The position numbers were made by a program, and so were the translations under genes. This document shows, piece after piece, positions 12,021 to 46,665 of a DNA stretch of 64,000 nt; positions within the stretch are counted from its first letter, which is position 1; the number at the start of each line of letters is the position of its first letter. Source of the DNA: Nitrospirota bacterium (GTDB taxonomy: Bacteria; Nitrospirota; Thermodesulfovibrionia; Thermodesulfovibrionales; Dissulfurispiraceae); NCBI GenBank assembly GCA_040758355.1, contig JBFLWF010000010.1, positions 1,776 through 65,775 of the forward strand, written 5' to 3'. The notes below the pieces were generated by a model. That model worked only from the letters and a program-made list of their open reading frames with translations. It was not told the DNA's origin and made no database searches.

Positions 12021-12095
12021 CTTAGTCCTCCATTTTGTTGCGATTTAATCTCAGTTACATTTTAAAACATATAGCAGATTATTTTCAACATAAAT

Positions 12096-12313: not shown

Positions 12314-12324
12314 TCTCGGAAACT

Positions 12325-12360
12325 ATGAGCTATCAGCTATCAGCTATGAGCGATGAGCTA
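12325..12360. repeat. Intergenic heptamer array (ATGAGCT/ATCAGCT x5)
   Basis: atgagct atcagct atcagct atgagcg atgagct a. Confidence 0.9.
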
Positions 12361-12409
12361 ATTAGTTTAACTTGCATCTTATTTAGCGTATCTTGTATCC
12401 TTTTAAATT

Positions 12410-14078: not shown

Positions 14079-14101
14079 GAAAACAAAGCTTTTGCGAATA
14101 T

Positions 14102-15648: not shown

Positions 15649-15652
15649 AAAT

Positions 15653-21866: not shown

Positions 21867-22547
21867 GTGAAGAAGAGTAAAAAGCTTCTGTTTGACCGGA
21901 TTATGAAAGGCATTCCTTTCTTTGCATGCCTTTCCGAAGATGAGATCAAGGATCTGCGGCATGTGCTCGTCGAAAAGCATTTCTCAAGAAATAAGATAAT
22001 ATTTGTGGAAGATGATACGCAGAATTATATGTATGTTATCCTTTCTGGTAAGGTAAAGGTAGTGTATCTGGGCGCCGACGGAAAGGAGCATATCCTTGCG
22101 GTGCATAAAACAGGGGATTTCTTTGGGGAGATGGCTTTGCTTGACGGAAAGACAGCGCCTGCCACGGTTATAGCAATGGAAGACACGGATATCCTGATAA
22201 TGTCAAGAAAGGACTTTGAAGAATCTCTACTGAAAAACAACAGGGTGCTCAAAGAGATAATTTCCATACTCTGTACAAGGCTCAGGGATGCATGGATGAT
22301 GAACAAGGTTCTGTGCCTGCCGCGTGCAGAGGAAAGGATCAGGACGCTGCTTAAGCTTATGGGAATTCATTACGGCATAAAAGATAAACGCGGCACTGTC
22401 ATAACATTGAGGCTTACCCATCAAGACATTGCCGATTATTCATCGCTATCCAGAGAGACTGTAACCCGCCTTCTTAACAGGCTTGTCAGGGGCGGGGAGA
22501 TCGAAGTCCTTGACGACAGAAATATCCTTCTTAAGCCATCCTTTTAG
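21867..22547 (+). CDS. Crp/Fnr-family transcriptional regulator with CRP-type recognition helix
   Basis: cNMP-binding-like barrel (IIFVEDDTQNYMYVILSGKVKV...GDFFGEMALLDG) and HTH QDIADYSSLSRETVTRLLNRL. RETVTR parallels E. coli CRP RETVGR. The start may be GTG 21867 or ATG 21903. Confidence 0.85.
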   Translation: MKKSKKLLFDRIMKGIPFFACLSEDEIKDLRHVLVEKHFSRNKIIFVEDDTQNYMYVILSGKVKVVYLGADGKEHILAVHKTGDFFGEMALLDGKTAPATVIAMEDTDILIMSRKDFEESLLKNNRVLKEIISILCTRLRDAWMMNKVLCLPRAEERIRTLLKLMGIHYGIKDKRGTVITLRLTHQDIADYSSLSRETVTRLLNRLVRGGEIEVLDDRNILLKPSF

Positions 22548-25959: not shown

Positions 25960-27627
25960 ATGGGTAAAAGGATTTATGTATTGTTTGTGGCTGTTCTGGC
26001 GCTTGCCCTTGTAGGGGGAGTTTACTACACAAGCGCAGATGCCCAGTACAAAGCCGATGCAAAGAAGACAGCAGCCGAAAAACCTGTGAAGGTAGAGACA
26101 TGCTATGGATGCCATGCGCCTGTTAAAGAGCTTCACACAATGGGCAAGCATGCAAAGGTTAACTGTGCAAGCTGTCACAAGGGACTTGACAAGCATGTAA
26201 AGGCTCCAGGCCCGGATACAAGGCCTGTAACCGACACATCATGGGAGGCATGCGGACAGTGCCATAAGGAACAGTATGAAAGCTTTATGAAAGAGGCATA
26301 CCACAGGCCTGCAAGGGATGAGAAGTCCCAGCTTACCAACAGGTCGCCTAATCCATTCTGGGACAAGCTCATGATGCCGCATGGCTTTACAAAGGAGCAC
26401 AATCTTACAAGGAGCCACAAGTGGATGCTCATAGACCATCTGATTGTTGACAGGGCATACGGCGGAAGGTTCCAGGGAAAGAACGGATGGAATTATCTAT
26501 TTGAAGGCGGCAAGGCATGGGATGTGCTTGTTGATACAAAGCCCGATGCAAAAGAGCATAAGGCATTCATTCCACAGAGCGCACCGGCAGCAAACCCTGT
26601 TTGCCTGAATTGTAAAACTCAAGACCACATCCTCGACTGGGCATATATGGGAGACCCTGACAAGGGTGCAAAATGGTCGAGGGCATCTTTTGTTCCTGAG
26701 TTTGCAAAGAATCTGAATCATGCCCTTAACTGTTATATGTGCCATGACCCTCATGCAGCAAAGCCGAGAGTAGTGAGGGATGGATTAATCGATGCACTTA
26801 CAAGGCCTGACGGCGACACCCTCTGGCACAAGGATCCGAAAAGGACGGGAATCAAAGTTATCGATCTGGGCGTAAGGGGCTATACAAGAAAGATTGCGCT
26901 TCTTGATAAATACGATACAAGGCTTCAGTGCGGACAGTGCCATGTGGAGTATAACTGCAACCCGGGAACCGATACCAAGACAGGACAGCCTGTGACAATG
27001 AAGGACAGAAGGACAAACCACTTCCCGTATAAGGATGTATTCGATCTTTATGAACACTATGTGAACAAGATCAACTTCCTTGACTTCAAGCATGGATTGA
27101 CAGGTGGACTCCTCTGGAAGGCACAGCACCCCGAGGCAGAATCTTACTATAATTCAAAGCATGCAAAGGCAGGAGTTGGATGCGACGGCTGCCATACACC
27201 GAAGGTAAAGGACAAAAAGACGGGGAAGGTCTATACATCACACTTTGCAGTAACGCCGAAGGCTCAGCTTAAGGATACATGCCTGAAGTGCCATACAAAG
27301 TGGACAGAGGAGCAGGCAAAATATTCAATTGACTCCATCAAGGCATACACAAAGGGAAAGATGAGAAAGGCCGAGTTCTGGCTCTCTGCCTTAATCGACA
27401 AGATAGTCGAGGCAAAAAAGGCTGGAGTGGATGCAGAAACGATAAAGAAGGCTCAAGACCAGCATCTCAGGGCGCATATTCTCTGGGAGTACTGGACCGC
27501 TGAGAACTCAGACGGCTTCCACAACCCTGAAATGGCAAGGGAATCGCTTACAAGGTCTGTTGACGAATCACAGAAGGGCATCAAGATAATTACCGATGCC
27601 ATGGCAGCAAAAACAGCTGCAAAATAA
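25960..27627 (+). CDS. Octaheme cytochrome c, nitrite-reductase-like (ONR/TvNiR type; CXXCK at the 4th heme site)
   Basis: Signal/anchor VLFVAVLALALVGGV. Heme motifs in order: CYGCH, CASCH, CGQCH, CLNCK, CYMCH, CGQCH, CDGCH, CLKCH. Confidence 0.75.
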   Translation: MGKRIYVLFVAVLALALVGGVYYTSADAQYKADAKKTAAEKPVKVETCYGCHAPVKELHTMGKHAKVNCASCHKGLDKHVKAPGPDTRPVTDTSWEACGQCHKEQYESFMKEAYHRPARDEKSQLTNRSPNPFWDKLMMPHGFTKEHNLTRSHKWMLIDHLIVDRAYGGRFQGKNGWNYLFEGGKAWDVLVDTKPDAKEHKAFIPQSAPAANPVCLNCKTQDHILDWAYMGDPDKGAKWSRASFVPEFAKNLNHALNCYMCHDPHAAKPRVVRDGLIDALTRPDGDTLWHKDPKRTGIKVIDLGVRGYTRKIALLDKYDTRLQCGQCHVEYNCNPGTDTKTGQPVTMKDRRTNHFPYKDVFDLYEHYVNKINFLDFKHGLTGGLLWKAQHPEAESYYNSKHAKAGVGCDGCHTPKVKDKKTGKVYTSHFAVTPKAQLKDTCLKCHTKWTEEQAKYSIDSIKAYTKGKMRKAEFWLSALIDKIVEAKKAGVDAETIKKAQDQHLRAHILWEYWTAENSDGFHNPEMARESLTRSVDESQKGIKIITDAMAAKTAAK

Positions 27628-27637
27628 TCATAAACAA

Positions 27638-27672
27638 AAAAGGCGGGGCATAAGCCCCGCCTTTAAGTTTTT
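27638..27672 (+). terminator. Rho-independent terminator after the octaheme cytochrome gene
   Basis: aggcggggc-ataa-gccccgcct followed by ttaagttttt. Confidence 0.8.
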
Positions 27673-27706
27673 ACAAAAACCCAAAGGATTGGAGGGGAAG
27701 GGGAGT

Positions 27707-28216
27707 ATGGATATGAAAAGGATTATAATTTTTCTGATATTGATATTATGCGGCATGGCCGGACTCTATGTTTCCACAGGATACGGCCATAGAAACAGCG
27801 CTCCGAATCTTGAATGTATAAGCTGCCACGAAGGAGAAATGGTTCAGAATATGGTAAAGGTTCAGGGATTGCCTAAAAATTATGTTCCGGGCAAGACATA
27901 CAATTTAACAGTGGTTGTAACAAGCGACCTCGATAGCATGAGCGAATGCAAAGGAGGTTTTGCAATCGAGGCATCTGCAGGGAAATTGGTAGTCAAGGAC
28001 AAAAAAAATACCCAGTTGAGCAATGGAATATTAACCCATACACAGGAAGGCTCGGGATTAAGAAAATGGAATTTTAGCTGGAAGGCACCATCAGAGAAAA
28101 TCGATGCAAGCATTACGGTGATGGCGGTTGCAGCTAACGGGGATTATTCACCGTTTGGCGATAAGGTGGGTGCCGATAGCTATACAATTCATTACACAGG
28201 CAAGTCAACAAAGTAA
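27707..28216 (+). CDS. Secreted monoheme c-type cytochrome with C-terminal beta-sandwich-like domain, function unknown
   Basis: ATG 27707 after GGAGGGG. Signal peptide MDMKRIIIFLILILCGMAGLYVS and a single CISCH motif. The remainder, GGFAIEASAGKL...WNFSWKAPSEK...AVAANGDYSPFGD, is reminiscent of Reeler/DOMON-type patterns (weak, from memory). Confidence 0.6.
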   Translation: MDMKRIIIFLILILCGMAGLYVSTGYGHRNSAPNLECISCHEGEMVQNMVKVQGLPKNYVPGKTYNLTVVVTSDLDSMSECKGGFAIEASAGKLVVKDKKNTQLSNGILTHTQEGSGLRKWNFSWKAPSEKIDASITVMAVAANGDYSPFGDKVGADSYTIHYTGKSTK

Positions 28217-28247
28217 TTCATATAAACAAAAAAAGAGGAGGTCATAG

Positions 28248-31200
28248 ATGAAACTCAGCAGAAGAGATTTTCTAAGGGCAAGTGCCATAACAGCCGCTGC
28301 TGCAGCAGCAGGTATTGCAAGGCCTGAAATGCTTCTGGCTGCGGCGCCTGTTAAGTCCTTTCCAGTAGGGCAATGCAGGTTCTGTGCAGTCGGATGCACC
28401 ATGATAGCGGACTGTGAGGTTGATGCCGCAGGCAAGGTCACAAGGGTAGTAGCATTAAAGGGAGACCTGAAGAGTCCTGTAAATAGGGGCGTTCTTTGTA
28501 CTAAAGGTTTCTATCTCCATAAGGCCATTGCGTATAAAGACAGGCCCAAAGGCGCCCTTGTAAGAAAAGAATGGATTAATCCGAAAACAGGGAAGCCTGA
28601 TTTGAATAACTCTCCGAGGGTTCTTCAGGGAAAGACAACAAAAGACCCGAAGGGTTTAAAGCCATCGGAAGTGGATTTAAAGGAGAATTTTGCCCTCGTG
28701 CCGTGGGAGGATGCGATCAACTTTGTTGCCGATGCAGTAGAAAAATCCATAAAAGAGCATGGCAAGCACAGCGTTGCATTCTATGGAAGCGGCCAGTTGG
28801 GTACAGAAGAGACACATATTATGAACAAGGTCTTCAAGGGCGGAGGTGCATTGGCAAATAACGCCATCGAGGGACAGCCGAGGACATGCATGGCATCTGC
28901 GGTCGTTGGCTACCTCTACACCTTTGGAAAGGATGAGCCTTATGGATGTCTCGATGATATCGATGTGCCTGACCCTGACTTCAAAAAGCACGCAGATACG
29001 CTTTTCATAATCGGCAACAATACTGCAGAGGCACATCCGATAATCTTTAACAGGATGGCAGCAGCAAAATCAAAGAACCCCAATATGAAGGTGATACTTG
29101 CTGACCCGAGAAAGACCCGTTCCGGCACAATCGCCGATCTATGGCTGCCGTTTGCAACAGGCAGGGATCTTGTGCTTTTGAATGCGATTGCCTACGTAAT
29201 AACACATGAACTCGATGGCGCAAAATACGATGTAGAAAAAGGCACTGTGGATGCAAAATGGAAATACCTCGATAAAAAGTTCATCGAAAGGCACGTGAGC
29301 TTCGGCATACACGAGGATGTTAAAAAGACATGGATAAAGACCACATATGGAGGAGCAAGGGATACGGCATGGGATCTCACATACTCAGCAGAGCCGAGAA
29401 AGACCTATCCATCCCTTAAGACAAAATATGCATCGGAGGATGACATATTAAAAGACCTCTATAAGGGTTTTGCAGCCTTCCTCAAGTTTCTTGAGGACTA
29501 CAAGCCAGAAAAGGTCTCCGAAATAATATTCGAGGGCGAAGCTCCGCTCGTCTATGAAAAGGCGACCAGGACATGGAAGAAGATAAGCGGTCCCGAGGCA
29601 ATAAGGCTTGCAGCAAAATGGTTTGCCGAAGGATATACTTTGTCGGCCTGGTGCATGGGCGTGAACCAGAAGCTTCAGGGCACGTGGGTTAATGCATCGC
29701 TGCATATGCTCCATTTGATAACAGGAAAGGCGGTCAAACCGGGCAGACATTCCTTCAGCTTTACCGGACAGCCCAATGCCTGCGGTGGAATCAGGGCGCC
29801 GGGCGCACTGTGCCATGCACTTCCTTATGGAAGGCTTGTTGCAAATCCCCTTCACAGGGCAGCAGTCGAAAAGATATGGACAGACAGGGCATCAGCATAT
29901 TTAAAGAAAAAGGGCGTATCTGAATCCGAAATATCTGTAGAGATGAAAAAGATCAAGATACATGACAAGCCCGGTCCGCATACGGTTGAGATGTTCAGGC
30001 GCCTCGGTGCAGGACAGATAAAGGTTCAGTTTATATCAACCGTGAATGCAGGACAGAGCCTTCCATATGCATGGCCATACAGACTCGCGATGGCTGGTGC
30101 AAAAAAAGGAGAGGCATGGCCGCTTACCGTTACCCTCGAGGCATTTCCCAATGCCACGACAATGGTGTCAGACATAGTGCTCGGCGCATCGAGCTGGTTT
30201 GAAAAGGAGTTCATATTCGGAAACCTCGAAAGGCGGTATCAGGTCATAAAACAGGTAATAGAGCCCTATGGCAACACACTGCCGGACCATACAATCTTCG
30301 CATGTATTATGAGAAGACTGGAGGAAAAGGGTCTCGTGCCTCATGGCCATGTGTCACAGTTCTGGCCTGCTGAATATGACGGCGCCGACTGGATGAAAAA
30401 GACCGTTGCTGCTGGAAAGACAAAGGAATGGAACAGGGAATTTTCAGCCAACATATGGGAAGAGCTGTTGACCCTTTCAAAGGGTACAGGATACGACTTC
30501 AGCGGCATGAATAGAAAGATGCTCCTTGAGCAAAATCACGGATATAGAATTCCGCTTCCTTCTGAATACCATACAGATGCAGCGGTTAAGGCAAGATATG
30601 ACAAGTATCAGTCGAGAATCCAGTATGCATACCCCTATGATCCACATATAGATAAAATAACTGCTGCATACCTGAAGAACATGAAGGAGTTCAATCCTGT
30701 ATATGGCGCATGGCTTGAGAAGAATATAGAGGGTATGAAAAAGGATGAGGAATATCACAAAGAGGAAAACCTGCCCAAAGGATGGTATGCGAGCTTCTAT
30801 AATTCCAATGCCTTTATTAACGGCATGGTTGACATACCTACGCCTGACGGAAAGACCAGAAAGGCGCCGGGCTGGGACGGAAGGGCTATTGCATGGGCAA
30901 ATCCGTGGTGGGCATGCAAATTCGATGGAAAGGCATTTGCAAAGTACAAAACAGTGGAGGTCATCGAGAGGACATTTAATCCCAAAAAGGTTGAAGAGAA
31001 CAGCACACTGCCCTTTGATGTTAAGAGCAAATACACTGTTAATGTTATAGGCGACCCGAATAAGGACATGAATGCCCTCAAGAACATAGCATTAAGCCCT
31101 GCGGAGTTCCAGAACCTGCGGCATGAATACACAAAGACAGATGGAAGCAAGCTCCTCATCATCGATACTACAGCATATCCATATGGTGCATGTACAGGAA

Positions 31201-31583
31201 GGGTTGTGGAGCACTGGCACACAGGCAGCATGACCACGAGGGTGTCGGAGCTTAACCGTGCAGTCCCCGGCGCTTATGTAGAGCTTAATGAAGTCCTTGC
31301 AAAGAAACTGGGAATAAAGAACGGCGACTCCGTGATTGTGGAATCGCCGAGGGGCAAGATCGAGCTTCCTGCAAAGGTGCTCGATGTCGCAAAGGCAACG
31401 GGCGGTCCGAGATACGATTATGTCTTTGTCCCGTGGTTCGACGAGTACAAGCTCATTAATATGATAATGAGGGACGCCTTTGACCCCTTCAGCTTCCAGC
31501 CTGACTACAAGATGTTCGCTGTGAAGATTTACAAGGGGAAGACCAAAGGCAGACAGGCAGAGCCGGGCAAGGTGATAGCGTAG
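28248..31583 (+). CDS. napA: Periplasmic nitrate reductase catalytic subunit NapA-like Mo-bisPGD enzyme, unusually long (1111 aa)
   Basis: Tat signal SRRDFLRASAITAAAAAAG. [4Fe-4S] motif C43RFC46AVGC50...C84TKG. Mo-ligand block QPRTC214MASAV...GNNTAEAHP. C-terminal NapA blocks GRVVEHWHTGSMT and FVPWFDEYKLIN...DPFSFQPDYKMFAVKI. Confidence 0.8.
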   Translation: MKLSRRDFLRASAITAAAAAAGIARPEMLLAAAPVKSFPVGQCRFCAVGCTMIADCEVDAAGKVTRVVALKGDLKSPVNRGVLCTKGFYLHKAIAYKDRPKGALVRKEWINPKTGKPDLNNSPRVLQGKTTKDPKGLKPSEVDLKENFALVPWEDAINFVADAVEKSIKEHGKHSVAFYGSGQLGTEETHIMNKVFKGGGALANNAIEGQPRTCMASAVVGYLYTFGKDEPYGCLDDIDVPDPDFKKHADTLFIIGNNTAEAHPIIFNRMAAAKSKNPNMKVILADPRKTRSGTIADLWLPFATGRDLVLLNAIAYVITHELDGAKYDVEKGTVDAKWKYLDKKFIERHVSFGIHEDVKKTWIKTTYGGARDTAWDLTYSAEPRKTYPSLKTKYASEDDILKDLYKGFAAFLKFLEDYKPEKVSEIIFEGEAPLVYEKATRTWKKISGPEAIRLAAKWFAEGYTLSAWCMGVNQKLQGTWVNASLHMLHLITGKAVKPGRHSFSFTGQPNACGGIRAPGALCHALPYGRLVANPLHRAAVEKIWTDRASAYLKKKGVSESEISVEMKKIKIHDKPGPHTVEMFRRLGAGQIKVQFISTVNAGQSLPYAWPYRLAMAGAKKGEAWPLTVTLEAFPNATTMVSDIVLGASSWFEKEFIFGNLERRYQVIKQVIEPYGNTLPDHTIFACIMRRLEEKGLVPHGHVSQFWPAEYDGADWMKKTVAAGKTKEWNREFSANIWEELLTLSKGTGYDFSGMNRKMLLEQNHGYRIPLPSEYHTDAAVKARYDKYQSRIQYAYPYDPHIDKITAAYLKNMKEFNPVYGAWLEKNIEGMKKDEEYHKEENLPKGWYASFYNSNAFINGMVDIPTPDGKTRKAPGWDGRAIAWANPWWACKFDGKAFAKYKTVEVIERTFNPKKVEENSTLPFDVKSKYTVNVIGDPNKDMNALKNIALSPAEFQNLRHEYTKTDGSKLLIIDTTAYPYGACTGRVVEHWHTGSMTTRVSELNRAVPGAYVELNEVLAKKLGIKNGDSVIVESPRGKIELPAKVLDVAKATGGPRYDYVFVPWFDEYKLINMIMRDAFDPFSFQPDYKMFAVKIYKGKTKGRQAEPGKVIA

Positions 31584-31587
31584 AGAT

Positions 31588-31619
31588 AGAGTGCCGGAGT
31601 GCTTGCACTCCGGCACTCT
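31588..31619 (+). other. Perfect 14-bp stem / 4-nt loop hairpin between napA and napG (no U-tract)
   Basis: agagtgccggagtg-cttg-cactccggcactct. Confidence 0.7.
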
Positions 31620-31642
31620 AATATAAGACCTATAAGACTTAT

Positions 31643-32416
31643 ATGACCTATAAAAATCTTACAAGAAGAAATTTTTTAAAGGCATCTATTCTAACAGGCA
31701 CTACTGTGATAGCGGGCAGTGGGCTGACCGTTTTTGAAAGACACGCTTCTGCGGGGAAAGAGGAATCTGTAGGCCCGCTTCATGATATAGATGTTGGCGG
31801 CATTATAAGGCCTCCAGGTGCCTTGCCGGAAAAGGAATTCCGCTCAAAATGCATAAGCTGCGGCGTGTGCGTGAATGTCTGCCATGTGATGAAATACGAT
31901 GCCATTGCAATTGCTGCTTCCCCCTTACGCTCTTTTGGGACGCCTTACATAAAAGACATGAGGGATTTCCCGTGCGGCCTCTGTATGGAATGCCCGAGGC
32001 ACTGTCCCACTGGAGCCTTAAAAAAGGTAGAAAAGGAAAAGGCAACCATGGGAATGGCGCTCATTGATTTCGGCCTGTGCTTCGGCTGGAACGGCGATGT
32101 ATGCCTTTCATGCAGCAAGGCATGTCCAATTGGCGCAAAGGTCTTTGATTTTTACAACGGAGAGTGGGGTAATCAGCCCTATATCAATGACAACTGCGTA
32201 GGCTGCGGTTTATGCGTTAAATACTGCCCTCTTGGTGGCTCTGCAATAAAGGTGATTACAAAAAGGCAGTATTATGATAAGGTCAAAGCCTCTTATACAA
32301 GCGAATTTAAAAGACTTTTATCCATGCCCAATGAAGAGCGTTATAACATTGTTTACGGTCAAAATATGCCCCAGATAATGGCAAGGGGAAGGCTGGTGGA
32401 ACGTGAGTACAGATAG
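31643..32416 (+). CDS. napG: NapG-like Tat-exported four-cluster ferredoxin
   Basis: Tat signal TRRNFLKAS. Cluster motifs CISCGVCVNVC, CGLCMECPRHCP, CLSCSKACP, CVGCGLCVKYCP. Confidence 0.75.
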   Translation: MTYKNLTRRNFLKASILTGTTVIAGSGLTVFERHASAGKEESVGPLHDIDVGGIIRPPGALPEKEFRSKCISCGVCVNVCHVMKYDAIAIAASPLRSFGTPYIKDMRDFPCGLCMECPRHCPTGALKKVEKEKATMGMALIDFGLCFGWNGDVCLSCSKACPIGAKVFDFYNGEWGNQPYINDNCVGCGLCVKYCPLGGSAIKVITKRQYYDKVKASYTSEFKRLLSMPNEERYNIVYGQNMPQIMARGRLVEREYR

Positions 32417-33269
32417 TCAAGAACAGCAATCAGCAATCAGCAGTCAGCAAAAGAGGAAAATACCGTTATCAAAGATCAGACGGTTTGTAATGCTGGGCGT
32501 GATCGCGTTATTTCTCCTTCAATTCCTGAGAGTGAAAATCCTTGTCGGTGGGCTTTCTGGCTCGCTTGCTGTATGGTTAGTAAAGCTCATCGATGTCTTT
32601 GCCTATTTTGAGAGTCTTATTGCATCGAGGGATTTTACAACTACGGCCCTCTGGGCAGTGCTCCCTGTTATAGCGATTTATCTTATATTTGGCAGGGCAT
32701 TCTGCGGATGGGTGTGCCCCATGGACTTTCTTTTTGAGATGGTTGATAGGATAAGGGGCGATAGGCAATGGGCGACAGGCGATAGGATAAAGAGAATTTC
32801 TCCGAAAATCGGATATGTGATTGCAGCAGCATTGCTTATTGTATCTGGCCTGATGAATATACCATTCTTCACAAGCTACATTTCCCATCTCACAAACTTT
32901 TTCAGACTTTTGACAGGAAGCGTGTTTTTTGCATTTAAGCTCCCTGTGGAGCCGATAGTGCTGGCATATTCAGGAGGCATGATAACCCTGCTCCTCGGCC
33001 TCGAATATTTCTTTCCAAGACTCTGGTGCAGGGTCTTATGCCCTGTGGGAAAGACTTACGGGCTTTTTAACAAGGTAAGCCTTCTTAAACTGAAGTTTAT
33101 GGAAGGGGAGTGCGGTGAATGCAATCTGTGCGACCAGATGTGTTACATGAACGTAAAAATAGCTAAAAACATAGACCAGCCGGGACTCAGGGACATAAAC
33201 TGCATTTATTGCGGCAGGTGCGTGGAAGGGTGCGAGACTAAAGGAAGGCTCATAAAAATGAAATTCTAA
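32403..33269 (+). CDS. napH: NapH-like membrane-bound polyferredoxin (quinol dehydrogenase subunit)
   Basis: TM helices with CGWVCPMD and CRVLCPVG motifs, plus C-terminal CGECNLCDQMC and CIYCGRCVEGC. GTG start overlapping napG. The N-terminus holds a heptamer array. Confidence 0.75.
   Translation: MSTDSQEQQSAISSQQKRKIPLSKIRRFVMLGVIALFLLQFLRVKILVGGLSGSLAVWLVKLIDVFAYFESLIASRDFTTTALWAVLPVIAIYLIFGRAFCGWVCPMDFLFEMVDRIRGDRQWATGDRIKRISPKIGYVIAAALLIVSGLMNIPFFTSYISHLTNFFRLLTGSVFFAFKLPVEPIVLAYSGGMITLLLGLEYFFPRLWCRVLCPVGKTYGLFNKVSLLKLKFMEGECGECNLCDQMCYMNVKIAKNIDQPGLRDINCIYCGRCVEGCETKGRLIKMKF
32424..32451. repeat. Heptamer array in napH 5' end (CAGCAAT CAGCAAT CAGCAGT CAGCAAA)
   Basis: This is the reverse orientation of GCTGATT units. 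It encodes QQSAISSQQ. Confidence 0.9.
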
Positions 33270-33275
33270 CAATCT

Positions 33276-33340
33276 GTCATTCCCACGAAAGTGGGAATCC
33301 AGACAGCAAAGGTATAGATTCCTGCTTTCGCAGGAATGAC
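33276..33340. repeat. REP-like compound palindrome (two perfect hairpins inside an outer GTCATTCC/GGAATGAC inverted repeat)
   Basis: gtcattcccac-gaaa-gtgggaatcc ... attcctgc-tttc-gcaggaatgac. It produces the spurious PAKAGI / FRGND-type peptides seen in antisense ORFs 33036..33365 and 33266..33559. Confidence 0.75.
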
Positions 33341-33380
33341 TTTTAAAAGGTATTTTCGGAAACAATTAGAGGAGGGAACA

Positions 33381-33650
33381 ATGATTGTTGCAAGCGGGTT
33401 TATAGAGGCAAATGATATGAAAGACGTGGAAAGGGTAGTGGACGAATTGAAAGCAAGGGGCGTAGAGGTCAACGAAGTAAAGGATGAAAAAATAGTATTT
33501 TTAGTTGAGAGGGAGACGGTCTCCGAGGTAAAAAATTCACTGGATTCGCTAAAGGACATAGACGGCGTCAGAAATGTATACCTTGCCTACTATAGTCTTG
33601 AGGGCAGCGACAGGGATCTGGAAAATTTACTTCCCTTTAACACACATTAA
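33381..33650 (+). CDS. napD: NapD-like Tat-proofreading chaperone
   Basis: ATG 33381 after GAGGAGGG. MIVASGFIEANDMKDVERVVDELKARGVEVNEVKDEKIVFLVERETVSEV...IDGVRNVYLAYYSLE fits the NapD ferredoxin-like pattern. Confidence 0.6.
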   Translation: MIVASGFIEANDMKDVERVVDELKARGVEVNEVKDEKIVFLVERETVSEVKNSLDSLKDIDGVRNVYLAYYSLEGSDRDLENLLPFNTH

Positions 33651-33726
33651 TATCATCTTTACAGCCTTTTGCTTTAGACTTTAAGTAATGCAAAATTGTA
33701 GATTTGGGGAGAAAACTGTGCTGGAT

Positions 33727-33954
33727 ATGGTAGGCTTTATTGTGAAGATAAAAGAGGGATTAATGGACACTGCAGTGAAGAGTTTTGAAGATATGCCTCA
33801 TATAAGCATATACGGCGCAAAGGATAACCAGATAGTGCTGCTCGTTGATACAGACGATGTGCATGTACTGGCACACAAAATAAAAGAGATTCAGGCTATG
33901 AATGGAGTATTAGGCGTTTATCCTATTTTTTCCCGCGACTCTTTACCTTTTTGA
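33727..33954 (+). CDS. Second NapD-like small protein
   Basis: MVGFIVKIKEG...MPHISIYGAKDNQIVLLVDTDDVHVLAHKIKEIQAMNGVLGVYPIF has the same pattern as NapD. The start is uncertain (ATG 33727 or upstream). Confidence 0.5.
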   Translation: MVGFIVKIKEGLMDTAVKSFEDMPHISIYGAKDNQIVLLVDTDDVHVLAHKIKEIQAMNGVLGVYPIFSRDSLPF

Positions 33955-33968: not shown

Positions 33969-34586
33969 TCATGGATTAATGACTCCTCTGAGGATAAGTG
34001 CAGCGCCTTTGTAAAAATCTTCTTGTGTAGACTCTAATACTTTATCCGCAAAAAGAGGCAGCCACAATGTCATATGTTCGCTAAGAAAGTCGCTTCTTAT
34101 CTCAAAGAGCCTCGATGCATCTTCACGCTGTCCCTGCTCAAAGAGTTCTATTATTTTTTGCGTCAGGTAATAGATAAACTCAAGCTCTATGCCGATATGG
34201 TCATCAGGAATGCTGTAAAGGTTCTTCACAGCCATGCCTGCTTCAAGGTATCTTTTCCTGACATCAATGGTCTCGTCTGTCATTAAGGATCTGGACTCTG
34301 ATAAATAAAAAGAGGCATAAGGCACTGCTGGAGGATTTTTAGGCCCTATGAATAAACGGGCATATTCGAGTGCAAGTTCTTCGAGCCACTCATCAAGCCT
34401 GTATTCATTCTTTCTGATTGATTCGATCAGGAGTTTCAGCCCATAGTTTATTTCAGCGTCTGTTTCATCTGGAGGATCAATCTTTGCGAGCTCATTAATC
34501 AATTCTTTTGTCGGCTCTTTTAAAAATAACTGCCTCAAAAGATTGTATAAATAAAGTTCTTCTCTTAATTCGTCTATCATTGTCAC
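33969..34586 (-). CDS. TorD/DmsD-family molybdoenzyme maturation chaperone
   Basis: 205 aa with YARLFIGPKNPPAVPYASFYL...DHIGIELEFIYYL, typical of TorD-like chaperones. It sits directly downstream of the Mo subunit. Confidence 0.75.
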   Translation of the reverse strand: MTMIDELREELYLYNLLRQLFLKEPTKELINELAKIDPPDETDAEINYGLKLLIESIRKNEYRLDEWLEELALEYARLFIGPKNPPAVPYASFYLSESRSLMTDETIDVRKRYLEAGMAVKNLYSIPDDHIGIELEFIYYLTQKIIELFEQGQREDASRLFEIRSDFLSEHMTLWLPLFADKVLESTQEDFYKGAALILRGVINP

Positions 34587-34596
34587 CTCTTATTTG

Positions 34597-34651
34597 GTTG
34601 ATGAGTATATGAGTAAATGGGTAAATGAGCAAACACCCATCTACCCATTCA
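34597..34651. repeat. Octamer-array hairpin between the Mo-subunit gene and torD-like gene
   Basis: gttgatga gtatatga gtaaatgg gtaaatga - gcaaaca - cccatcta cccattca. Confidence 0.7.
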
Positions 34652-34661
34652 CTGTTTTTTC

Positions 34662-37538: not shown

Positions 37539-37541
37539 CTC

Positions 37542-38204
37542 CTACTGGTTGATTAAGCCGTCGGCTGTTTTAAATACTTCCTTATCCGGAGCAATGAAAT
37601 GAACCCTCGGTTTTGTTCCATAATCCGGATGCCATGTCTCCGTCTTTTCTGAAGCCTTGAGCTTTGAAACGGCGCTGTTGGAATCGTTTAAATCACCAAA
37701 AGTCCTTGCCCGTCCCATGCAGTTGCGGACACATGCAGGCTCTTCGATACCTGCTGCGAGCCTATGGCTGCAAAAGTCGCACTTGTCGACAACCCTCAAA
37801 TCCTTTGCCTTCTTTCCTTTAACCTCAGGCACGTCTTTGGCGTATTTTGACGGATCGTTTTTGACAGGGATATGCGGATGTATAAACCGTGCGCCGTAAG
37901 GACATGCACCAACACATCTGCCGCAGCCGATGCATATGTCCCTGTCCACCATAACTACGCCGTCCTCCCGTTTGTAAGTAGCCCCTGTGGGACAGGGAAG
38001 GATGCACGGCGGCTCATCACACTGGTTGCAGATTTTAGGGAAAAAATACCTCTTTGGTTTCGGATATTCGCCCATATCGGCGATATCCACCCTTGACCTG
38101 AACTGCCCTATCGGCGCTGCATTTTCCATCTTGCAGCTTACCTGGCAGGATGTGCAGCCCACGCACTTCCTCAGGTCAACAAGCAATGCATACTTTTTTG
38201 ACAT
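37542..38204 (-). CDS. Four-cluster iron-sulfur subunit (DmsB/PsrB family)
   Basis: CVGCTSCQVSCK, CNQCDEPPCILPCPTGA, CIGCGRCVGACPYGA, CDFCSHRL...PACVRNC. True start ATG 38204 (MSKKYALLVD) after AAAGGAGGA. The track's TTG 38246 lies inside the promoter. Confidence 0.85.
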   Translation of the reverse strand: MSKKYALLVDLRKCVGCTSCQVSCKMENAAPIGQFRSRVDIADMGEYPKPKRYFFPKICNQCDEPPCILPCPTGATYKREDGVVMVDRDICIGCGRCVGACPYGARFIHPHIPVKNDPSKYAKDVPEVKGKKAKDLRVVDKCDFCSHRLAAGIEEPACVRNCMGRARTFGDLNDSNSAVSKLKASEKTETWHPDYGTKPRVHFIAPDKEVFKTADGLINQ

Positions 38205-38241
38205 AATAGCTCCTCCTTTCATGTGGAATTTGAAAGAGAAA

Positions 38242-38257
38242 AGCAATCATTATGCCA
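38242..38257 (-). promoter_or_regulatory. Sigma-54 (-24/-12) promoter for the FeS/Mo/TorD operon
   Basis: The minus strand reads TGGCAT-aatga-TTGCT with GG-N10-GC spacing, matching the consensus TGGCAC-N5-TTGCW. It lies about 38-53 nt upstream of ATG 38204. Confidence 0.7.
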
Positions 38258-44218: not shown

Positions 44219-44917
44219 TTATTCCGGTTTAAAACGATACCCTATCCCGGAAACAGTGATTATATATTCGGGCTCGGAAGGATTGTCCTCTATTTTCTGT
44301 CTCAGGTGCTGGATGTGGACATCTATAACCCTGCTCCATGAATATATCTTCGATTCTTTCCAGAGATGGTTTTTTATGTCCTCCCTGCTCAGCACAGAAC
44401 CCCTGCTGGAAATCAGGAGGCACAAAAGGTCGTACTCCTTCGGCGTCAGGATTATCTCTTTGTTTTTGACCTTCACTATTCTTCTCTTATAGTCGATGTT
44501 CAGTTTTCCTATTGTTATCTGTTCTTCGGTAGAGGGTTTTAACCTCCTCAGGCATGCCTTTATCCGTGCGATCAACTCAAGTGTCTCAAATGGTTTTACA
44601 ACATAGTCGTCAGCGCCGCTTTCGAGTCCTATTACCTTATCGGAAATCTTATCCTTTGCAGTAAGCATTATTATCGGCAACGAGGGATACCGTTTTCTCA
44701 AGGTGCGGCATATCTCAACTCCATCTCCGTCAGGGAGCATGAGGTCGAGGATCAGGAGGTCAGGTTTTTTTGCAGAGATTGTCTTCTGCCCTTCTGTCCA
44801 TGATTCTGCAGTAGCGACATTGTATTTATGAAGCTCGATGTTCGCCTTTAAGACCTTCAGGATGTCCCTGTCGTCATCGATTACCAGTATTGTATGGTTT
44901 TTATTCTCTTTTAGCAT
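44219..44917 (-). CDS. OmpR/PhoB-family response regulator
   Basis: Receiver LLILDLMLPDGDG and a winged-helix output (LTPKEYDLLCLL...GIGYRF); 232 aa. Confidence 0.9.
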   Translation of the reverse strand: MLKENKNHTILVIDDDRDILKVLKANIELHKYNVATAESWTEGQKTISAKKPDLLILDLMLPDGDGVEICRTLRKRYPSLPIIMLTAKDKISDKVIGLESGADDYVVKPFETLELIARIKACLRRLKPSTEEQITIGKLNIDYKRRIVKVKNKEIILTPKEYDLLCLLISSRGSVLSREDIKNHLWKESKIYSWSRVIDVHIQHLRQKIEDNPSEPEYIITVSGIGYRFKPE

Positions 44918-46665
44918 GGCGTTGTTATCTTCTTTGCTATCTCCAGCAGTTTATGCTGTTCTGTCCTGTTGAAACCTTCCTGTGAAAAGCTTTCATGATG
45001 CCCTTTTGTGTAAGGCAGTTTAAAATAGAAGCAGCTTCCGTTTTTGCCGTCGCTGTTTACGCCGATTATGCCATCATGCGCCTCTATTATGCTTTTGCAT
45101 ATGGCAAGACCGAGCCCTGTGCCTTCCTTATTGCCGTTTTTGTAGAATTTTTCAAAAACCCTTTCATGCTCCGAGGGCGGAATACCCGGACCTTCGTCCC
45201 ATATTTCCACAACCGCATGATCCTTCTCGGGATATGCAAAGACAAGTATCTCGGATTCCTCCGGAGCGAACTTTATGGCATTTGACAGGAGATTGATAAT
45301 GACCTGCTTTATCCTGTCTTCATCCATACGGACTATAATATTGTTTGGTATGTTTGCATTGAAGTATATGCCCTTTTCATCGGCATTTATCTGGAAATAC
45401 GTTAGGGCTTCAGCAATAAGATAGGAAAGGTTTACATCGGCAAAACGCAATTCGGACGTCCCCATCTCTATCCTCTCGATGTCCAGCATGGTGTTGACCA
45501 TGCGTATCAATCTCTCGGAGTTTTTCTTTATTACCTCAAAGAATATATGGAGGTCATCGAGGGCTGTTTCTTCATGGTGATATTGCAAATAGGACGAGAG
45601 TTTTGCCGATATGTAATCCATTGCACCTTTGATCGATGTCAGAGGTGTCCTTAATTCATGGGATGCCCGTGCTATGAAGTCGGATTTTCTTATGCTCGCC
45701 TCATTAAGGAGACGGTTGGTTTCGATTAATTTCCTGTTTGTTTCTTCGAGGCCCTTTGTTGCGTCCTTTATCTTATTGTTCAGGCAGTTGTGATAATCGG
45801 TGAGTGTGCCTGCCATTTGGGAAAAGGCGCTGCAGAGGTCTTCGAACTCATCTCCTGTCTTTAACCTCTTTGACGGAGAGTACGTGCCCTCCGAGAATTC
45901 ATTGATCGCGGATCTCAGTCTTTTCATCGGGGTAAGTACAATCTTTTTCATCATTAAAAACATGGCGGCCATAAGCGTCAGGACAGTAAGGACAGCAGCA
46001 ATTAACATGCTCTGCCTGTTTTCGGCAATCTCTGCAAAGGTTTTATCCATTGGGATTGCGACGCTTATAGCGCCCCTGACATCGCCGACTTTGTAGCCCT
46101 GCTTTGCGTGGCAGTTAAGGCATGCCTCTTCAACATAGAGCGGCGATATATACCTGAGATATTTGGAGTTGTCCATTTGTTCTATGGAGATAAGCTCTTT
46201 TAGGGTAGTTTTTTCAAATTGCTGGAGTGCATTTCTCTCGAATTCATCCGGTGCGTTTTCCGGGTTTGTTAGTTTGAGGCTCGTTATGTGAAACCAGTAA
46301 AGTCCTTTGTCCTTTGCATACTTAGATAGTTCCTTTGTGACCATTGCAGGCGTTTCCCTTATGTACCGCTTTCCCTGTACATCCCTGATCTCTGAATCCT
46401 TTATATAGGGGTTTGGCTTTATCCACGGAAGCTTCTCTACGAATATCCCTCCGTGGTCTGCTATCCATTTTCTTGTGATCACTATCTGCTTGAATATGGC
46501 ACGGGCTTCATTCTCCACCTGTCCCATGATGAGTCTTTCCTGACGCTGGGCAATAAAGTAGAAGGAAATGCCGAGGGCTACAATCAGGGTAATGCTGCAG
46601 CCTATGATTAATTTAGTGCTGAGATTCAGCCTCGGGTTTCTGATTTTTTTAAATAAATCAGACAT
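44911..46665 (-). CDS. Sensor histidine kinase with DUF3365-like c-type-heme sensor domain
   Basis: The extracytoplasmic domain ends in LYVEEACLNCHAKQGYKVGDVRGAISV, the pattern of the Tll0287/DUF3365 heme-c domain. It is followed by HAMP, H-box ASHELRTPLT and HATPase. Confidence 0.8.
   Translation of the reverse strand: MSDLFKKIRNPRLNLSTKLIIGCSITLIVALGISFYFIAQRQERLIMGQVENEARAIFKQIVITRKWIADHGGIFVEKLPWIKPNPYIKDSEIRDVQGKRYIRETPAMVTKELSKYAKDKGLYWFHITSLKLTNPENAPDEFERNALQQFEKTTLKELISIEQMDNSKYLRYISPLYVEEACLNCHAKQGYKVGDVRGAISVAIPMDKTFAEIAENRQSMLIAAVLTVLTLMAAMFLMMKKIVLTPMKRLRSAINEFSEGTYSPSKRLKTGDEFEDLCSAFSQMAGTLTDYHNCLNNKIKDATKGLEETNRKLIETNRLLNEASIRKSDFIARASHELRTPLTSIKGAMDYISAKLSSYLQYHHEETALDDLHIFFEVIKKNSERLIRMVNTMLDIERIEMGTSELRFADVNLSYLIAEALTYFQINADEKGIYFNANIPNNIIVRMDEDRIKQVIINLLSNAIKFAPEESEILVFAYPEKDHAVVEIWDEGPGIPPSEHERVFEKFYKNGNKEGTGLGLAICKSIIEAHDGIIGVNSDGKNGSCFYFKLPYTKGHHESFSQEGFNRTEQHKLLEIAKKITTPC

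What the first reader, a model, noticed from the sequence alone, without database searches (positions are those of the whole stretch)
25960..33954. Non-canonical periplasmic nitrate/nitrite locus: octaheme CXXCK cytochrome, orphan monoheme protein, oversized NapA, NapGH and two NapD, with no NapB/NapC/NrfH
Seen: 25960..27627 encodes a signal-anchored protein with seven CXXCH motifs and one CXXCK, in the order CYGCH, CASCH, CGQCH, CLNCK, CYMCH, CGQCH, CDGCH, CLKCH. A lysine motif at the fourth site is the layout of octaheme nitrite reductases (three N-terminal hemes plus an NrfA-like pentaheme core). After a strong terminator (27638..27672) come tightly spaced genes for a secreted monoheme protein, a Tat-NapA-like enzyme, a Tat-NapG-like ferredoxin, a NapH-like membrane protein and two NapD-like ORFs. 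I see no diheme NapB, tetraheme NapC/NrfH or NapF here. Inference: this is a self-contained quinol->NapGH->NapA module next to a nitrite-to-ammonium octaheme enzyme. The unknown monoheme protein is a candidate NapB replacement or ONR redox partner. I do not recognise this combination as a described nap/nrf operon type.
Basis: partly seen in the sequence, partly recalled or inferred. Interest (0 to 1): 0.75.

Follow-up and report, generated by a model that had tools for sequence, protein, structure and literature searches.

The report
Nitrate-to-ammonium gene cluster with overlooked cytochrome
This is a real, conserved gene cluster for respiring nitrate to ammonium, of a type already reported in Desulfurivibrio, but it always includes a small one-heme protein that published accounts omit and that may be the missing electron donor of this unusual nitrate reductase.

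Summary
The window comes from a Dissulfurispira-like Nitrospirota genome. At 25960-33954 it encodes an octaheme nitrite reductase 50% identical to the solved TvNiR enzyme, with every catalytic residue kept. A terminator follows, then a monoheme protein, a 1111-aa NapA, NapG, NapH and two NapD. No NapB-, NapC- or NrfH-like cytochrome lies anywhere in the 64 kb.

The operon type is not undescribed. Desulfurivibrio alkaliphilus (2017) and D. dismutans (2025) carry orthologs, about 73% identical in NapA. They were published as 'napAGHD' plus an octaheme nitrite reductase. Both are induced by nitrate, and the NapA electron donor was called unknown.

New here:
- The monoheme gene lies directly upstream of the long NapA in 48 of 49 genome loci and is followed by it in all 30 testable metagenome loci. 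A homolog also lies about 1.3 kb upstream of the NapA-like gene in the archaeon Pyrolobus.
- Its predicted fold is a beta-sandwich (reeler-like, cytochrome f-like). It is not a NapB.
- In one genome a tetraheme cytochrome takes its place.
- A heme-sensor kinase and regulator pair flanks the cluster in about 20 genomes.

I read the monoheme as a functional NapB substitute. This rests on synteny and is not demonstrated.

The parts
25960..27627 (+). Octaheme cytochrome c nitrite reductase (ONR, TvNiR/TaNiR type), 555 aa, with an N-terminal hydrophobic signal or anchor
   Evidence: It has seven CXXCH motifs and one CXXCK at site 4. It matches PDB TvNiR 2ot4/2zo5 at E=1e-168 and the octaheme NiR 8rv0 at 2e-157, against about 1e-24 for pentaheme NrfA. 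It is 50% identical to TvNiR over 524 aa. R165, K219, Y331, C333 and H390 align with TvNiR R131, K188, Y303, C305 and H361.
27639..27672 (+). Intrinsic-terminator-like hairpin with a T-rich tail, between the ONR gene and the nap genes
   Evidence: The stem has 11 pairs, 8 of them GC, with a 4-nt loop and the tail AAGTTTTTAC.
27707..28216 (+). Secreted monoheme c-type cytochrome with a beta-sandwich fold (choice-of-anchor V domain); proposed electron-donor subunit of the long NapA
   Evidence: It matches NF041895 at 96.9 bits (cutoff 42) and has a single CISCH. The AF2 model has pLDDT 87.7. Its best PDB folds are the F-spondin reeler domain (E 9e-8) and cytochrome f at rank 5. It has no sequence relative in the PDB. 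It lies directly upstream of the long NapA in 48/49 genome loci and 30/30 metagenome loci. H41 and H111 are invariant, including in Pyrolobus.
28248..31583 (+). Long-form periplasmic nitrate reductase catalytic subunit (NapA-like, 1111 aa) with a Tat signal
   Evidence: Its best NCBIfam hit is NapA at 449.6 bits, below the equivalog cutoff of 904; Fdh scores 253 and NasC 208. Its best PDB hit is D. desulfuricans NapA at E=4e-125. C214, M215, M470 and R516 align with DdNapA C140, M141, M308 and R354. It has about 355 extra residues in folded insertions. The top 8 Foldseek hits are all NapA, TMt 0.82-0.91.
31643..32416 (+). NapG-like periplasmic ferredoxin with a Tat signal and four [4Fe-4S] motifs
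   Evidence: It matches NF007012 NapG at 2.9e-31 and TIGR00397 MauM/NapG at 2e-27, both below their cutoffs, and has a weak TAT_signal hit. It is syntenic in nearly all loci.
32403..33269 (+). NapH-like membrane quinol dehydrogenase subunit
   Evidence: It matches TIGR02163 NapH/MauN at 4e-37 and NF007013 at 3.7e-35, both below their cutoffs. The sequence shows two CX3CP motifs (CGWVCP, CRVLCP) and two C-terminal CX2CX2CX3C motifs.
33381..33650 (+). NapD-like chaperone 1 (the ORF as listed starts at 33336)
   Evidence: It scores 32.5 bits on Pfam NapD (gathering threshold 28). It is conserved downstream of NapH in almost all loci. A GAGGAGGG ribosome-binding site precedes the ATG at 33381.
33718..33954 (+). 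NapD-like chaperone 2 (the ORF as listed starts at 33688), a distant paralog
   Evidence: It scores 40.8 bits on Pfam NapD. It is only 26% identical to NapD1 over 43 aa. It is found in only 5 other loci: L015, L028, L031, L037 and L042.
44219..46665 (-). Sensor kinase with a Tll0287-like heme-c domain (584 aa, CLNCH) and an OmpR-type response regulator (232 aa); probable regulator of the cluster, lying about 10 kb away here
   Evidence: The kinase hits Pfam Tll0287-like, HAMP, HisKA and HATPase; the regulator hits Response_reg and Trans_reg_C. Full-length orthologs of both (kinase up to 1067 bits, regulator up to 474 bits) lie directly beside the ONR-nap cluster in about 20 other genomes. L058 also has a Tll0287-type kinase and a response regulator upstream of its ONR. 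The regulatory role is inferred from synteny only.

Best explanation

Step 1, nitrate to nitrite. NapH, a membrane protein with CX3CP motifs, oxidises menaquinol. It passes electrons to the Tat-exported poly-ferredoxin NapG. I propose that NapG passes them to the small beta-sandwich monoheme cytochrome encoded just upstream of napA. This cytochrome would feed the [4Fe-4S] cluster and the Mo-bisMGD site of a long-form NapA, so it would do the job of NapB without being related to it. The NapD proteins chaperone the Tat substrates.

Step 2, nitrite to ammonium. The TvNiR-type octaheme enzyme, encoded immediately upstream as a separate transcription unit, performs the six-electron reduction.

A heme-c (Tll0287-like) sensor kinase and OmpR-type regulator pair, which flanks the cluster in many relatives, probably controls expression.

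Basis of each claim:
- Shown by homology: the identities of ONR, NapA, NapG, NapH and NapD, and conservation of their catalytic or cofactor residues.
- Shown by comparison: the obligate linkage of the monoheme gene to the long NapA.
- Taken from the literature on orthologs: induction by nitrate.
- Inferred: the order of electron transfer, the role of the monoheme protein, and the role of the sensor.
For: ONR: E=1e-168 and 50% identity to TvNiR. All eight heme sites and R131, K188, Y303, C305 and H361 are conserved.

NapA:
- NapA is the best family in NCBIfam and all the top PDB hits are NapA.
- The Mo-ligand Cys and the active-site Met, Met and Arg of DdNapA are conserved.
- The model is confident (pLDDT 89.6). 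Its 8 best structural matches are all NapA.

NapG, NapH and NapD: family hits and cofactor motifs.

Orthologs in cultured organisms:
- D. alkaliphilus NapA is 73% identical and lies in the same mono-NapA-G-H-D order.
- Its operon is highly expressed with nitrate, and the genome lacks napB, nrfB and nrfH (PMC5516251).
- In D. dismutans, NapA and the ONR are strongly up on nitrate. The choice-of-anchor V protein RS11650, NapG and NapH were detected only in nitrate-grown cells (PMC12142623 Table S1).

Linkage of the monoheme gene to NapA:
- It is on the same strand and within 400 nt upstream in 48/49 genome loci from Nitrospirota, Desulfobacterota/Thermodesulfobacteriota and Bacteroidota/Kryptonia.
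- In the reverse test, all 30 metagenome loci that have downstream DNA show a long NapA after the monoheme gene.
- The linkage holds where the ONR is elsewhere (Desulfurivibrio, Kryptonia). In the archaeon Pyrolobus fumarii a homolog lies about 1.3 kb upstream of the NapA-like gene, with an opposite-strand gene between them.
- The one exception, L045, has a c3/c7-like tetraheme cytochrome in the same slot. This is a non-homologous swap of one small cytochrome for another.

No ORF with 2 or 4 heme motifs lies within 10 kb in almost all loci.
Against: - No biochemical or genetic data exist for the monoheme protein. Its role rests on gene order and one low-abundance proteomic detection.
- NapG could reduce NapA directly, since D. 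desulfuricans NapA is monomeric.
- NapA, NapG and NapH all score below the NCBIfam equivalog cutoffs.
- Archaeal relatives of the long NapA include organisms not known to respire nitrate, on my own knowledge. Ignicoccus islandicus has the Mo subunit alone, without a monoheme gene or NapGH nearby.
- No electron donor for the ONR is encoded in the window.
- No complex could be modelled with the tools available.
- The rest of this genome was not available to check for napB, napC or nrfH.
Confidence: 0.65

Rival explanations
1. The long NapA is a true monomer fed directly by NapG. The monoheme protein is not on the main electron path. It could be an entry point for other periplasmic donors, a sensor, a protective protein or a maturation factor.
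For: The closest solved relative is the monomeric D. desulfuricans NapA. Thorup et al. inferred a monomeric NapA. Most of the wider choice-of-anchor V family lacks a heme motif: only 45 of the top 149 representatives have CXXCH. The fold is therefore not intrinsically a redox fold.
Against: The Nap-linked subfamily always keeps CXXCH and an invariant second His. Linkage to NapA is near-obligate in both directions. Another small cytochrome replaces it in L045. It was detected only under nitrate, together with NapG and NapH.
Confidence: 0.2
2. The monoheme cytochrome is the redox partner of the octaheme nitrite reductase, or serves both enzymes, rather than being specific to NapA.
For: The ONR gene lies directly upstream of the monoheme gene in 32 of 43 loci. 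No NrfH-like donor for the ONR is encoded nearby.
Against: In Desulfurivibrio, Kryptonia and several MAGs the ONR is absent from the locus while the monoheme gene stays directly next to napA. In Pyrolobus a monoheme homolog also stays near the NapA-like gene, about 1.3 kb upstream. In the window a strong terminator separates the ONR gene from the monoheme gene, and only 31 nt separate the monoheme gene from napA. L010 and Kryptonia pair the same mono-Nap unit with a different octaheme family, PF13447.
Confidence: 0.1
3. The long Mo enzyme is not a nitrate reductase in this organism and reduces some other oxyanion, so the cluster is not a DNRA unit.
For: It scores at half the NapA equivalog cutoff. 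It has about 355 inserted residues. Archaeal relatives occur in organisms not known for nitrate respiration (the physiology is from my own knowledge).
Against: The Mo ligand and active-site residues of NapA are conserved. The gene is adjacent to a nitrite reductase in 32/43 loci. Orthologs are induced by nitrate in two cultured Desulfurivibrio species that grow by DNRA. Published phylogenies place the ortholog in the Nap clade.
Confidence: 0.05

Closest known systems
Desulfurivibrio alkaliphilus / D. dismutans 'NapAGHD' periplasmic nitrate reductase (Thorup et al. 2017, PMC5516251; PMC12142623, 2025)
   Same: NapA is orthologous: 1111 aa, 73-74% identical, same length. The gene order mono-NapA-NapG-NapH-NapD is the same. 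There is no NapB, NapC or NrfH. Each genome also has a CXXCK octaheme nitrite reductase.
   Different: In Desulfurivibrio the ONR gene is elsewhere in the genome and there is one NapD. Here the ONR gene lies directly upstream and there are two NapD paralogs. Neither paper's main text, as far as my term searches showed, names the upstream choice-of-anchor V gene as part of the system. It appears only as a row in the 2025 proteome table.
TvNiR (Thioalkalivibrio nitratireducens) and the octaheme nitrite reductase in PDB 8rv0
   Same: It has eight hemes with a Lys-ligated catalytic heme at site 4. The catalytic Arg, Tyr and His and the Cys of the Tyr-Cys link are conserved. Identity to TvNiR is 50%.
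   Different: The host is a Nitrospirota bacterium and the gene is physically linked to a nap operon. The oligomeric state and the physiological donor are untested.
Wolinella/Campylobacter-type NapAGHBFLD system
   Same: NapGH serves as the quinol-oxidising module without NapC, and NapD is the chaperone. Literature knowledge, as cited.
   Different: That system passes electrons through diheme NapB to a NapA of roughly 900 aa. Here there is no NapB, NapF or NapL. A beta-sandwich monoheme protein stands in the operon instead, and NapA carries different insertions.
Desulfovibrio desulfuricans monomeric NapA (PDB 2NAP)
   Same: It is the closest solved structure (E=4e-125, TMt 0.91). The FeS motif and the active-site Cys, Met, Met and Arg are shared.
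   Different: It is 723 aa against 1111 aa. The window protein has folded insertions at about 108-144, 322-447, 546-565, 695-720 and 802-974.
Cytochrome f and the reeler domain (fold level only)
   Same: The predicted fold is a beta-sandwich with the heme-binding CXXCH near the N-terminus, as in the large domain of cytochrome f. The best structural matches are F-spondin reeler domains (E about 1e-7, target-normalised TM 0.59-0.66) and cytochrome f chain 2jxm_B (E 1.4e-5).
   Different: There is no detectable sequence homology and the TM scores are moderate. The heme ligation is unknown. The invariant H111 suggests bis-His rather than the N-terminal amine ligation of cytochrome f; this is an inference.

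Membership tests
NapA (periplasmic nitrate reductase catalytic subunit) | Twin-arginine signal and an N-terminal CX2CX3C...C [4Fe-4S] motif | tested here: met
   The N-terminus reads MKLSRRDFLRASA. TIGR01409 scores 23.5 against a cutoff of 16.7. Pfam Molybdop_Fe4S4 scores 30.9 bits. C43, C46, C50 and C84 are invariant in alignment A3.
NapA (periplasmic nitrate reductase catalytic subunit) | Mo-coordinating Cys in the PRxCMASAV motif, plus the active-site Met and Arg of DdNapA (C140, M141, M308, R354) | tested here: met
   PRTCMASAV, WCMGVNQ and NACGGIR align with the DdNapA residues. C214, M215, M470 and R516 are invariant in 53 sequences. That these residues are the defining ones comes from my own knowledge of the DdNapA literature.
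NapA (periplasmic nitrate reductase catalytic subunit) | Score above the curated NCBIfam equivalog cutoffs (NF010055, TIGR01706) | tested here: not met
   It scores 449.6 against 904, and 423.3 against 930.55. NapA is still the best family, ahead of Fdh-alpha at 252.9 and NasC at 207.6. The match is split into pieces by insertions.
NapA (periplasmic nitrate reductase catalytic subunit) | NapA fold | tested here: met
   The AF2 model has pLDDT 89.6 and pTM 0.91. Foldseek ranks 1-8 are all NapA structures, with target-normalised TM 0.82-0.91.
NapA (periplasmic nitrate reductase catalytic subunit) | Nitrate reductase activity | not testable with these tools
   Only indirect evidence exists: orthologs 73-74% identical are induced by nitrate in two Desulfurivibrio species.
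Octaheme nitrite reductase (TvNiR/TaNiR type) | Eight heme-binding motifs with CXXCK at the fourth site | tested here: met
   The motif order was confirmed. K219 aligns with TvNiR K188.
Octaheme nitrite reductase (TvNiR/TaNiR type) | Catalytic Arg, Tyr and His, and the Cys of the Tyr-Cys cross-link | tested here: met
   R165, Y331, H390 and C333 align with TvNiR R131, Y303, H361 and C305. The residue roles are from my own knowledge of the TvNiR literature.
Octaheme nitrite reductase (TvNiR/TaNiR type) | Full-length similarity to solved ONRs rather than to NrfA, Otr or HAO | tested here: met
   E=1e-168 to TvNiR and 2e-157 to 8rv0 over about 515 residues. NrfA matches only the C-terminal half at about 1e-24. 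No Otr or HAO chain appears among the hits.
NapB (diheme electron-transfer subunit) | Two CXXCH motifs in a small all-alpha cytochrome; NapB family match | tested here: not met
   The monoheme protein has one CXXCH, no Pfam or NCBIfam NapB hit, and a predicted beta-sandwich fold. It may work like NapB, but it is not a member.
Choice-of-anchor V domain (NCBIfam NF041895) | Score above the curated cutoff | tested here: met
   It scores 96.9 bits against a cutoff of 42, covering profile positions 12-147 of 150. [quoted passage not shown]
NapG / NapH quinol dehydrogenase module | NapG has a Tat signal and four [4Fe-4S] motifs. NapH has membrane helices, two CX3CP motifs and two C-terminal [4Fe-4S] motifs. 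| tested here: met
   The motifs can be read directly in the translations. NapG and NapH are the best family hits.
NapG / NapH quinol dehydrogenase module | Scores above the NCBIfam cutoffs | tested here: not met
   NapG scores 108.5 against 269. NapH scores 128.1 against 213 (TIGR02163) and 121.4 against 234. Both are divergent members.
NapD chaperone | Pfam PF03927 score above the gathering threshold | tested here: met
   The two ORFs score 32.5 and 40.8 bits against 28. Both fall below the E. coli-type equivalog NF007840.

The most novel reading that the evidence does not exclude
The choice-of-anchor V monoheme protein is a previously unrecognised kind of beta-sandwich c-type cytochrome. 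It would be the dedicated electron-donating subunit of a distinct, ancient long-NapA lineage found in Nitrospirota, Desulfobacterota, Kryptonia and Pyrodictiaceae archaea. This would answer the 'electron donor unknown' question left open for Desulfurivibrio in 2017. The unit would be regulated by a heme-c Tll0287-type sensor kinase.
Probability: 0.5. Interest if true: 0.6.

Novelty: new member of a known kind. Interest (0 to 1): 0.42.

Why it matters
This Nap and ONR pair seems to be the standard nitrate-ammonification module of Thermodesulfovibrionia-type Nitrospirota and of sulfur-disproportionating or sulfide-oxidising Desulfobacterota. I found it in about 50 species-level genomes and about 30 metagenome contigs. 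Routine annotation only partly recognises it: database names for NapA homologs range from 'nitrate reductase NapA' to generic molybdopterin oxidoreductase or 'selenocysteine-containing dehydrogenase', NrfH and NapB are absent, and the monoheme protein is named hypothetical in many sources. Gene-marker surveys that look for napAB and nrfAH could therefore undercount DNRA potential. Recognising the monoheme gene as a constant part of the unit turns an open question, who reduces this NapA, into a direct experiment in cultured Desulfurivibrio strains.

Tried and rejected
- Literature search for 'choice-of-anchor V': no paper in the searchable library.
- 'napAGHD' appears in only three papers. In the passages I read from the two Desulfurivibrio papers, the upstream gene is not discussed.
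- Sequence search of the monoheme protein against the PDB: nothing below E=0.1.
- Met139 as the distal heme ligand: invariant in bacteria but not conserved in the Pyrolobus homolog, so His111 is the better candidate.
- Transcript level of the D. alkaliphilus upstream gene: Table S3 of PMC5516251 is not held as text, so this could not be checked.
- Link between the neighbouring 958-aa Mo enzyme and the nitrate-induced 'Arr-like' enzyme of D. dismutans: no hit named Desulfurivibrio among the top 120 homologs, most of which carry no name. The enzyme is also absent from all other nap loci. I treat it as an unrelated neighbour.
- The kinase at 38698-40083 as the conserved neighbour: only its kinase core matches kinases in other loci. 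The true conserved pair is 44219-46665.
- Complex prediction of NapA with the monoheme protein or NapG: not possible, because only single chains from the window or from homolog searches can be submitted.
- Whole-genome check for napB, napC or nrfH in the source organism: not possible from a 64 kb window.

Full report
**What is there.**

The 555-aa product of 25960-27627 carries CYGCH, CASCH, CGQCH, CLNCK, CYMCH, CGQCH, CDGCH and CLKCH in that order. A GC-rich hairpin at 27639-27664 with a T-rich tail follows it.

Next comes a small protein with a single CISCH. Its real start is most likely 27707 or 27713, downstream of the terminator and a purine-rich ribosome-binding region.

After that lie:
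- a 1111-aa Tat-signal molybdoenzyme;
- a Tat-signal poly-ferredoxin;
- a membrane protein with two CX3CP motifs and two FeS motifs;
- two short NapD-like ORFs.

Pfam and NCBIfam assign these to NapA, NapG, NapH and NapD. The NapD hits pass the Pfam gathering score. The NapA, NapG and NapH hits are the best families but fall well below the NCBIfam equivalog cutoffs.

A six-frame scan of the whole 64 kb finds no other ORF with two or more CXXCH motifs. No NapB, NapC or NrfH candidate lies in the window.

**Source organism.** The nearest NapA homologs are 97% identical, and one is named Dissulfurispira sp. The next tier is annotated Nitrospirota, Thermodesulfovibrionales or Dissulfurispiraceae. 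G+C is about 42-48%.

**The octaheme enzyme.** It matches the solved eight-heme nitrite reductase of Thioalkalivibrio (TvNiR) at E=1e-168. It matches a second solved octaheme nitrite reductase, 8rv0, at 2e-157. Both matches are full length. Pentaheme NrfA matches only the C-terminal half, at about 1e-24.

BLASTP gives 50% identity to TvNiR over 524 residues. R165, K219, Y331, C333 and H390 align with TvNiR R131, K188, Y303, C305 and H361. I checked the TvNiR numbering against the chain offsets. The residue roles are from my knowledge of the TvNiR literature. This protein is an ONR, not Otr or HAO.

**The Mo subunit.** NapA is the top NCBIfam family at 449.6 bits, ahead of Fdh-alpha at 253 and NasC at 208. 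The best solved relatives are all NapA, led by the monomeric Desulfovibrio desulfuricans enzyme at E=4e-125.

The alignment keeps the FeS cysteines, the Mo-ligand Cys (PRTCMASAV) and the residues matching DdNapA M141, M308 and R354. These are invariant across 53 long and short NapA sequences.

Compared with NapAs of about 767 aa, the protein has about 355 extra residues. The main insertions are at 108-144, 322-447, 546-565, 695-720 and 802-974. An AlphaFold model (pLDDT 89.6, pTM 0.91) shows these insertions as confidently folded subdomains rather than disordered loops. The eight best structural matches are all NapA, with target-normalised TM 0.82-0.91.

**This type is already in the literature.** The long NapA is 73% identical to that of Desulfurivibrio alkaliphilus and 71% identical to that of Ca. 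Kryptonium.

Thorup et al. 2017 described a D. alkaliphilus 'napAGHD operon'. It was highly expressed during sulfide oxidation with nitrate. They reported no napB, an unknown electron donor, 'a novel type of NapA ... similar to Ca. Kryptonia', and no nrfB or nrfH (PMC5516251).

The 2025 D. dismutans paper names the system NapAGHD plus a CXXCK octaheme nitrite reductase homologous to TaNiR. It shows both strongly up on nitrate (PMC12142623).

The functional reading is right.

**What the published accounts leave out.** In D. alkaliphilus, in Ca. Kryptonium and in a more distant lineage (L058, NapA 60% identical), a homolog of the monoheme protein sits directly upstream of the long NapA. In the archaeon Pyrolobus fumarii a homolog (33% identical) lies about 1.3 kb upstream, with an opposite-strand gene in between. 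The motifs CxxCH, GGFA, LTHT, WxFxWxAP and AAxGD are conserved.

I then tested the linkage systematically:
- Forward test. Among 50 genome loci found with NapA as query, 49 include the NapA start with at least 700 nt upstream. Of these, 48 have the monoheme gene within 400 nt on the same strand.
- Reverse test. I searched metagenome contigs with the monoheme profile. All 32 close homologs (at least 42% identity) lie before a long NapA wherever downstream DNA exists, which is 30 of 30. Five distant family members (25-31%) are not Nap-linked.
- The exception. In L045, a Bacteroidota MAG, a 123-aa c3/c7-like tetraheme cytochrome occupies exactly that slot.

The ONR gene lies directly upstream in 32 of 43 loci. 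It is absent from the locus in Desulfurivibrio, Kryptonia and some MAGs, where the monoheme gene still stays with napA. The monoheme protein therefore tracks NapA rather than the ONR.

Within 10 kb of these loci there is almost never any ORF with 2 or 4 heme motifs.

In the D. dismutans proteome table, the choice-of-anchor V protein RS11650, NapG and NapH were detected only in formate + nitrate cells. This is weak support: abundances are low, and many proteins were seen only in that condition.

**Nature of the monoheme protein.** It matches NCBIfam NF041895, the choice-of-anchor V domain, at 96.9 bits against a cutoff of 42. It has no sequence relative in the PDB.

Its AlphaFold model (pLDDT 87.7) has an N-terminal signal helix, the CXXCH turn and a beta-sandwich. 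The best structural matches are F-spondin reeler domains (E about 1e-7, target-normalised TM 0.59-0.66). Cytochrome f appears at rank 5.

The wider family is large: 3207 representatives at E<=1e-3. Most members lack heme motifs, with CXXCH in only 45 of the top 149. Many carry C-terminal anchors. The Nap-linked proteins form a small heme-bearing branch.

H41 (in CXXCH) and H111 (in LTHT) are invariant, including in Pyrolobus; M139 is not. I therefore favour bis-His ligation, which is an inference.

The protein is not a NapB. It has one heme and a different fold.

**Mechanism proposed.** Menaquinol is oxidised by NapH, and electrons pass to NapG, then to the monoheme cytochrome, then to the NapA [4Fe-4S] cluster and Mo-bisMGD, which reduces nitrate to nitrite. 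The ONR then reduces nitrite to ammonium.

The NapGH part follows established knowledge of NapC-independent systems. The step through the monoheme protein is my inference from synteny, from the cytochrome swap in L045 and from the proteome detection.

The donor to the ONR remains unknown. The two NapD paralogs are 26% identical over 43 aa, and the second occurs in only five other loci. They may serve the two Tat substrates, NapA and NapG; this is speculation.

**Beyond the given coordinates.** The 584-aa histidine kinase at 44911-46665 has a Tll0287-like heme-c domain (CLNCH), HAMP and HisKA domains. The OmpR-type regulator at 44219-44917 lies next to it.

Both are full-length orthologs of a pair that lies directly next to the ONR-nap cluster in about 20 other genomes. 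That pair sits either just after napD on the opposite strand or just before the ONR gene. L058 also has a Tll0287-type kinase and a response regulator upstream of its ONR. This pair is probably the cluster's regulator.

In this genome about 10 kb separates the pair from the cluster. That stretch holds a TorD-like chaperone, a 958-aa Mo enzyme, an FeS subunit and further two-component genes.

**Verdict.** The function is well supported by homology and by data on cultured orthologs. The system is a new member of a known, if little studied, kind. The added value is the constant, overlooked monoheme partner and the conserved heme-sensor regulator. Both can be tested in existing Desulfurivibrio cultures.

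Noticed in passing
window 33276-33340: Two 23-nt hairpin units lie in inverted orientation in the NapH-NapD1 spacer: GTCATTCCCACGAAAGTGGGAAT on the + strand and GTCATTCCTGCGAAAGCAGGAAT on the - strand. They occur only here in the window (0.04 expected by chance). This looks like a small palindromic (REP/MITE-like) element. The first ATG of the NapD1 ORF falls inside it.
   Followed up: partly
window 33969-38246 (- strand): A convergent cluster lies here: a TorD-like chaperone (205 aa), a 958-aa Tat molybdoenzyme and a 234-aa four-cluster FeS subunit, with no membrane-anchor gene adjacent. The best solved relative is polysulfide/thiosulfate reductase 2vpw (8e-40). Homologs of about 948 aa at 60-92% identity are widespread in anaerobes such as Desulfitobacterium, Desulfuribacillus and Neomoorella, and none has a defined substrate in the names returned. 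The cluster is not found beside the nap cluster in other genomes.
   Followed up: partly
window 38352-40083 (- strand): A histidine kinase (461 aa) has a CYGCH heme-c motif between its two predicted membrane helices. A stand-alone receiver protein is next to it, just upstream of the Mo958 cluster. It may be a second heme-based sensor.
   Followed up: no
window 21867-22547: A Crp/Fnr-family regulator (cNMP_binding + HTH_Crp_2) lies 3.4 kb upstream of the ONR gene. I saw no obvious FNR-type palindrome in the ONR upstream region when reading it.
   Followed up: no
L045 9589-9960 and 2675-5166: In the one genome lacking the monoheme gene, a 123-aa tetraheme c3/c7-like cytochrome sits directly upstream of the long NapA. 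The same locus carries an ORF with four CXXCH and one CXXCK (NrfA-like by motif count) next to an ORF with four CXXCH.
   Followed up: partly
L003/L030/L033 (Kryptonia) about 13200-16440; L010 7759-9279: Kryptonia place a Rieske/cytochrome b pair and an 8xCXXCH octaheme of the PF13447 family (not the ONR type) after napD. L010 has a PF13447 octaheme where the ONR usually sits. The same mono-NapAGHD unit is thus combined with different multiheme enzymes.
   Followed up: partly
L005 (Pyrolobus fumarii) 6046-13884; L057 (Ignicoccus islandicus) 6001-9741: Archaeal long NapA-like proteins (about 1250 aa, 40% identical) exist. Pyrolobus has a monoheme homolog with a Thr-rich linker and a C-terminal membrane anchor, plus NapG- and NapH-like genes. 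Ignicoccus islandicus has the Mo subunit alone, with neither nearby.
   Followed up: partly
L042 13330-20837; L041 13324-15510; L015 13330-14326: In some relatives napA and napG are separated by 1-7.5 kb of extra DNA. I did not examine its content.
   Followed up: no
L003 5928-7409; L045 8062-9561: A protein of about 495 aa with no Pfam hit on record (for the Kryptonia copy) lies just upstream of the cytochrome-napA pair in Kryptonia and Bacteroidota loci. It has an N-terminal signal-like hydrophobic stretch and ends in Phe. It may be an outer-membrane channel for nitrate or nitrite.
   Followed up: no
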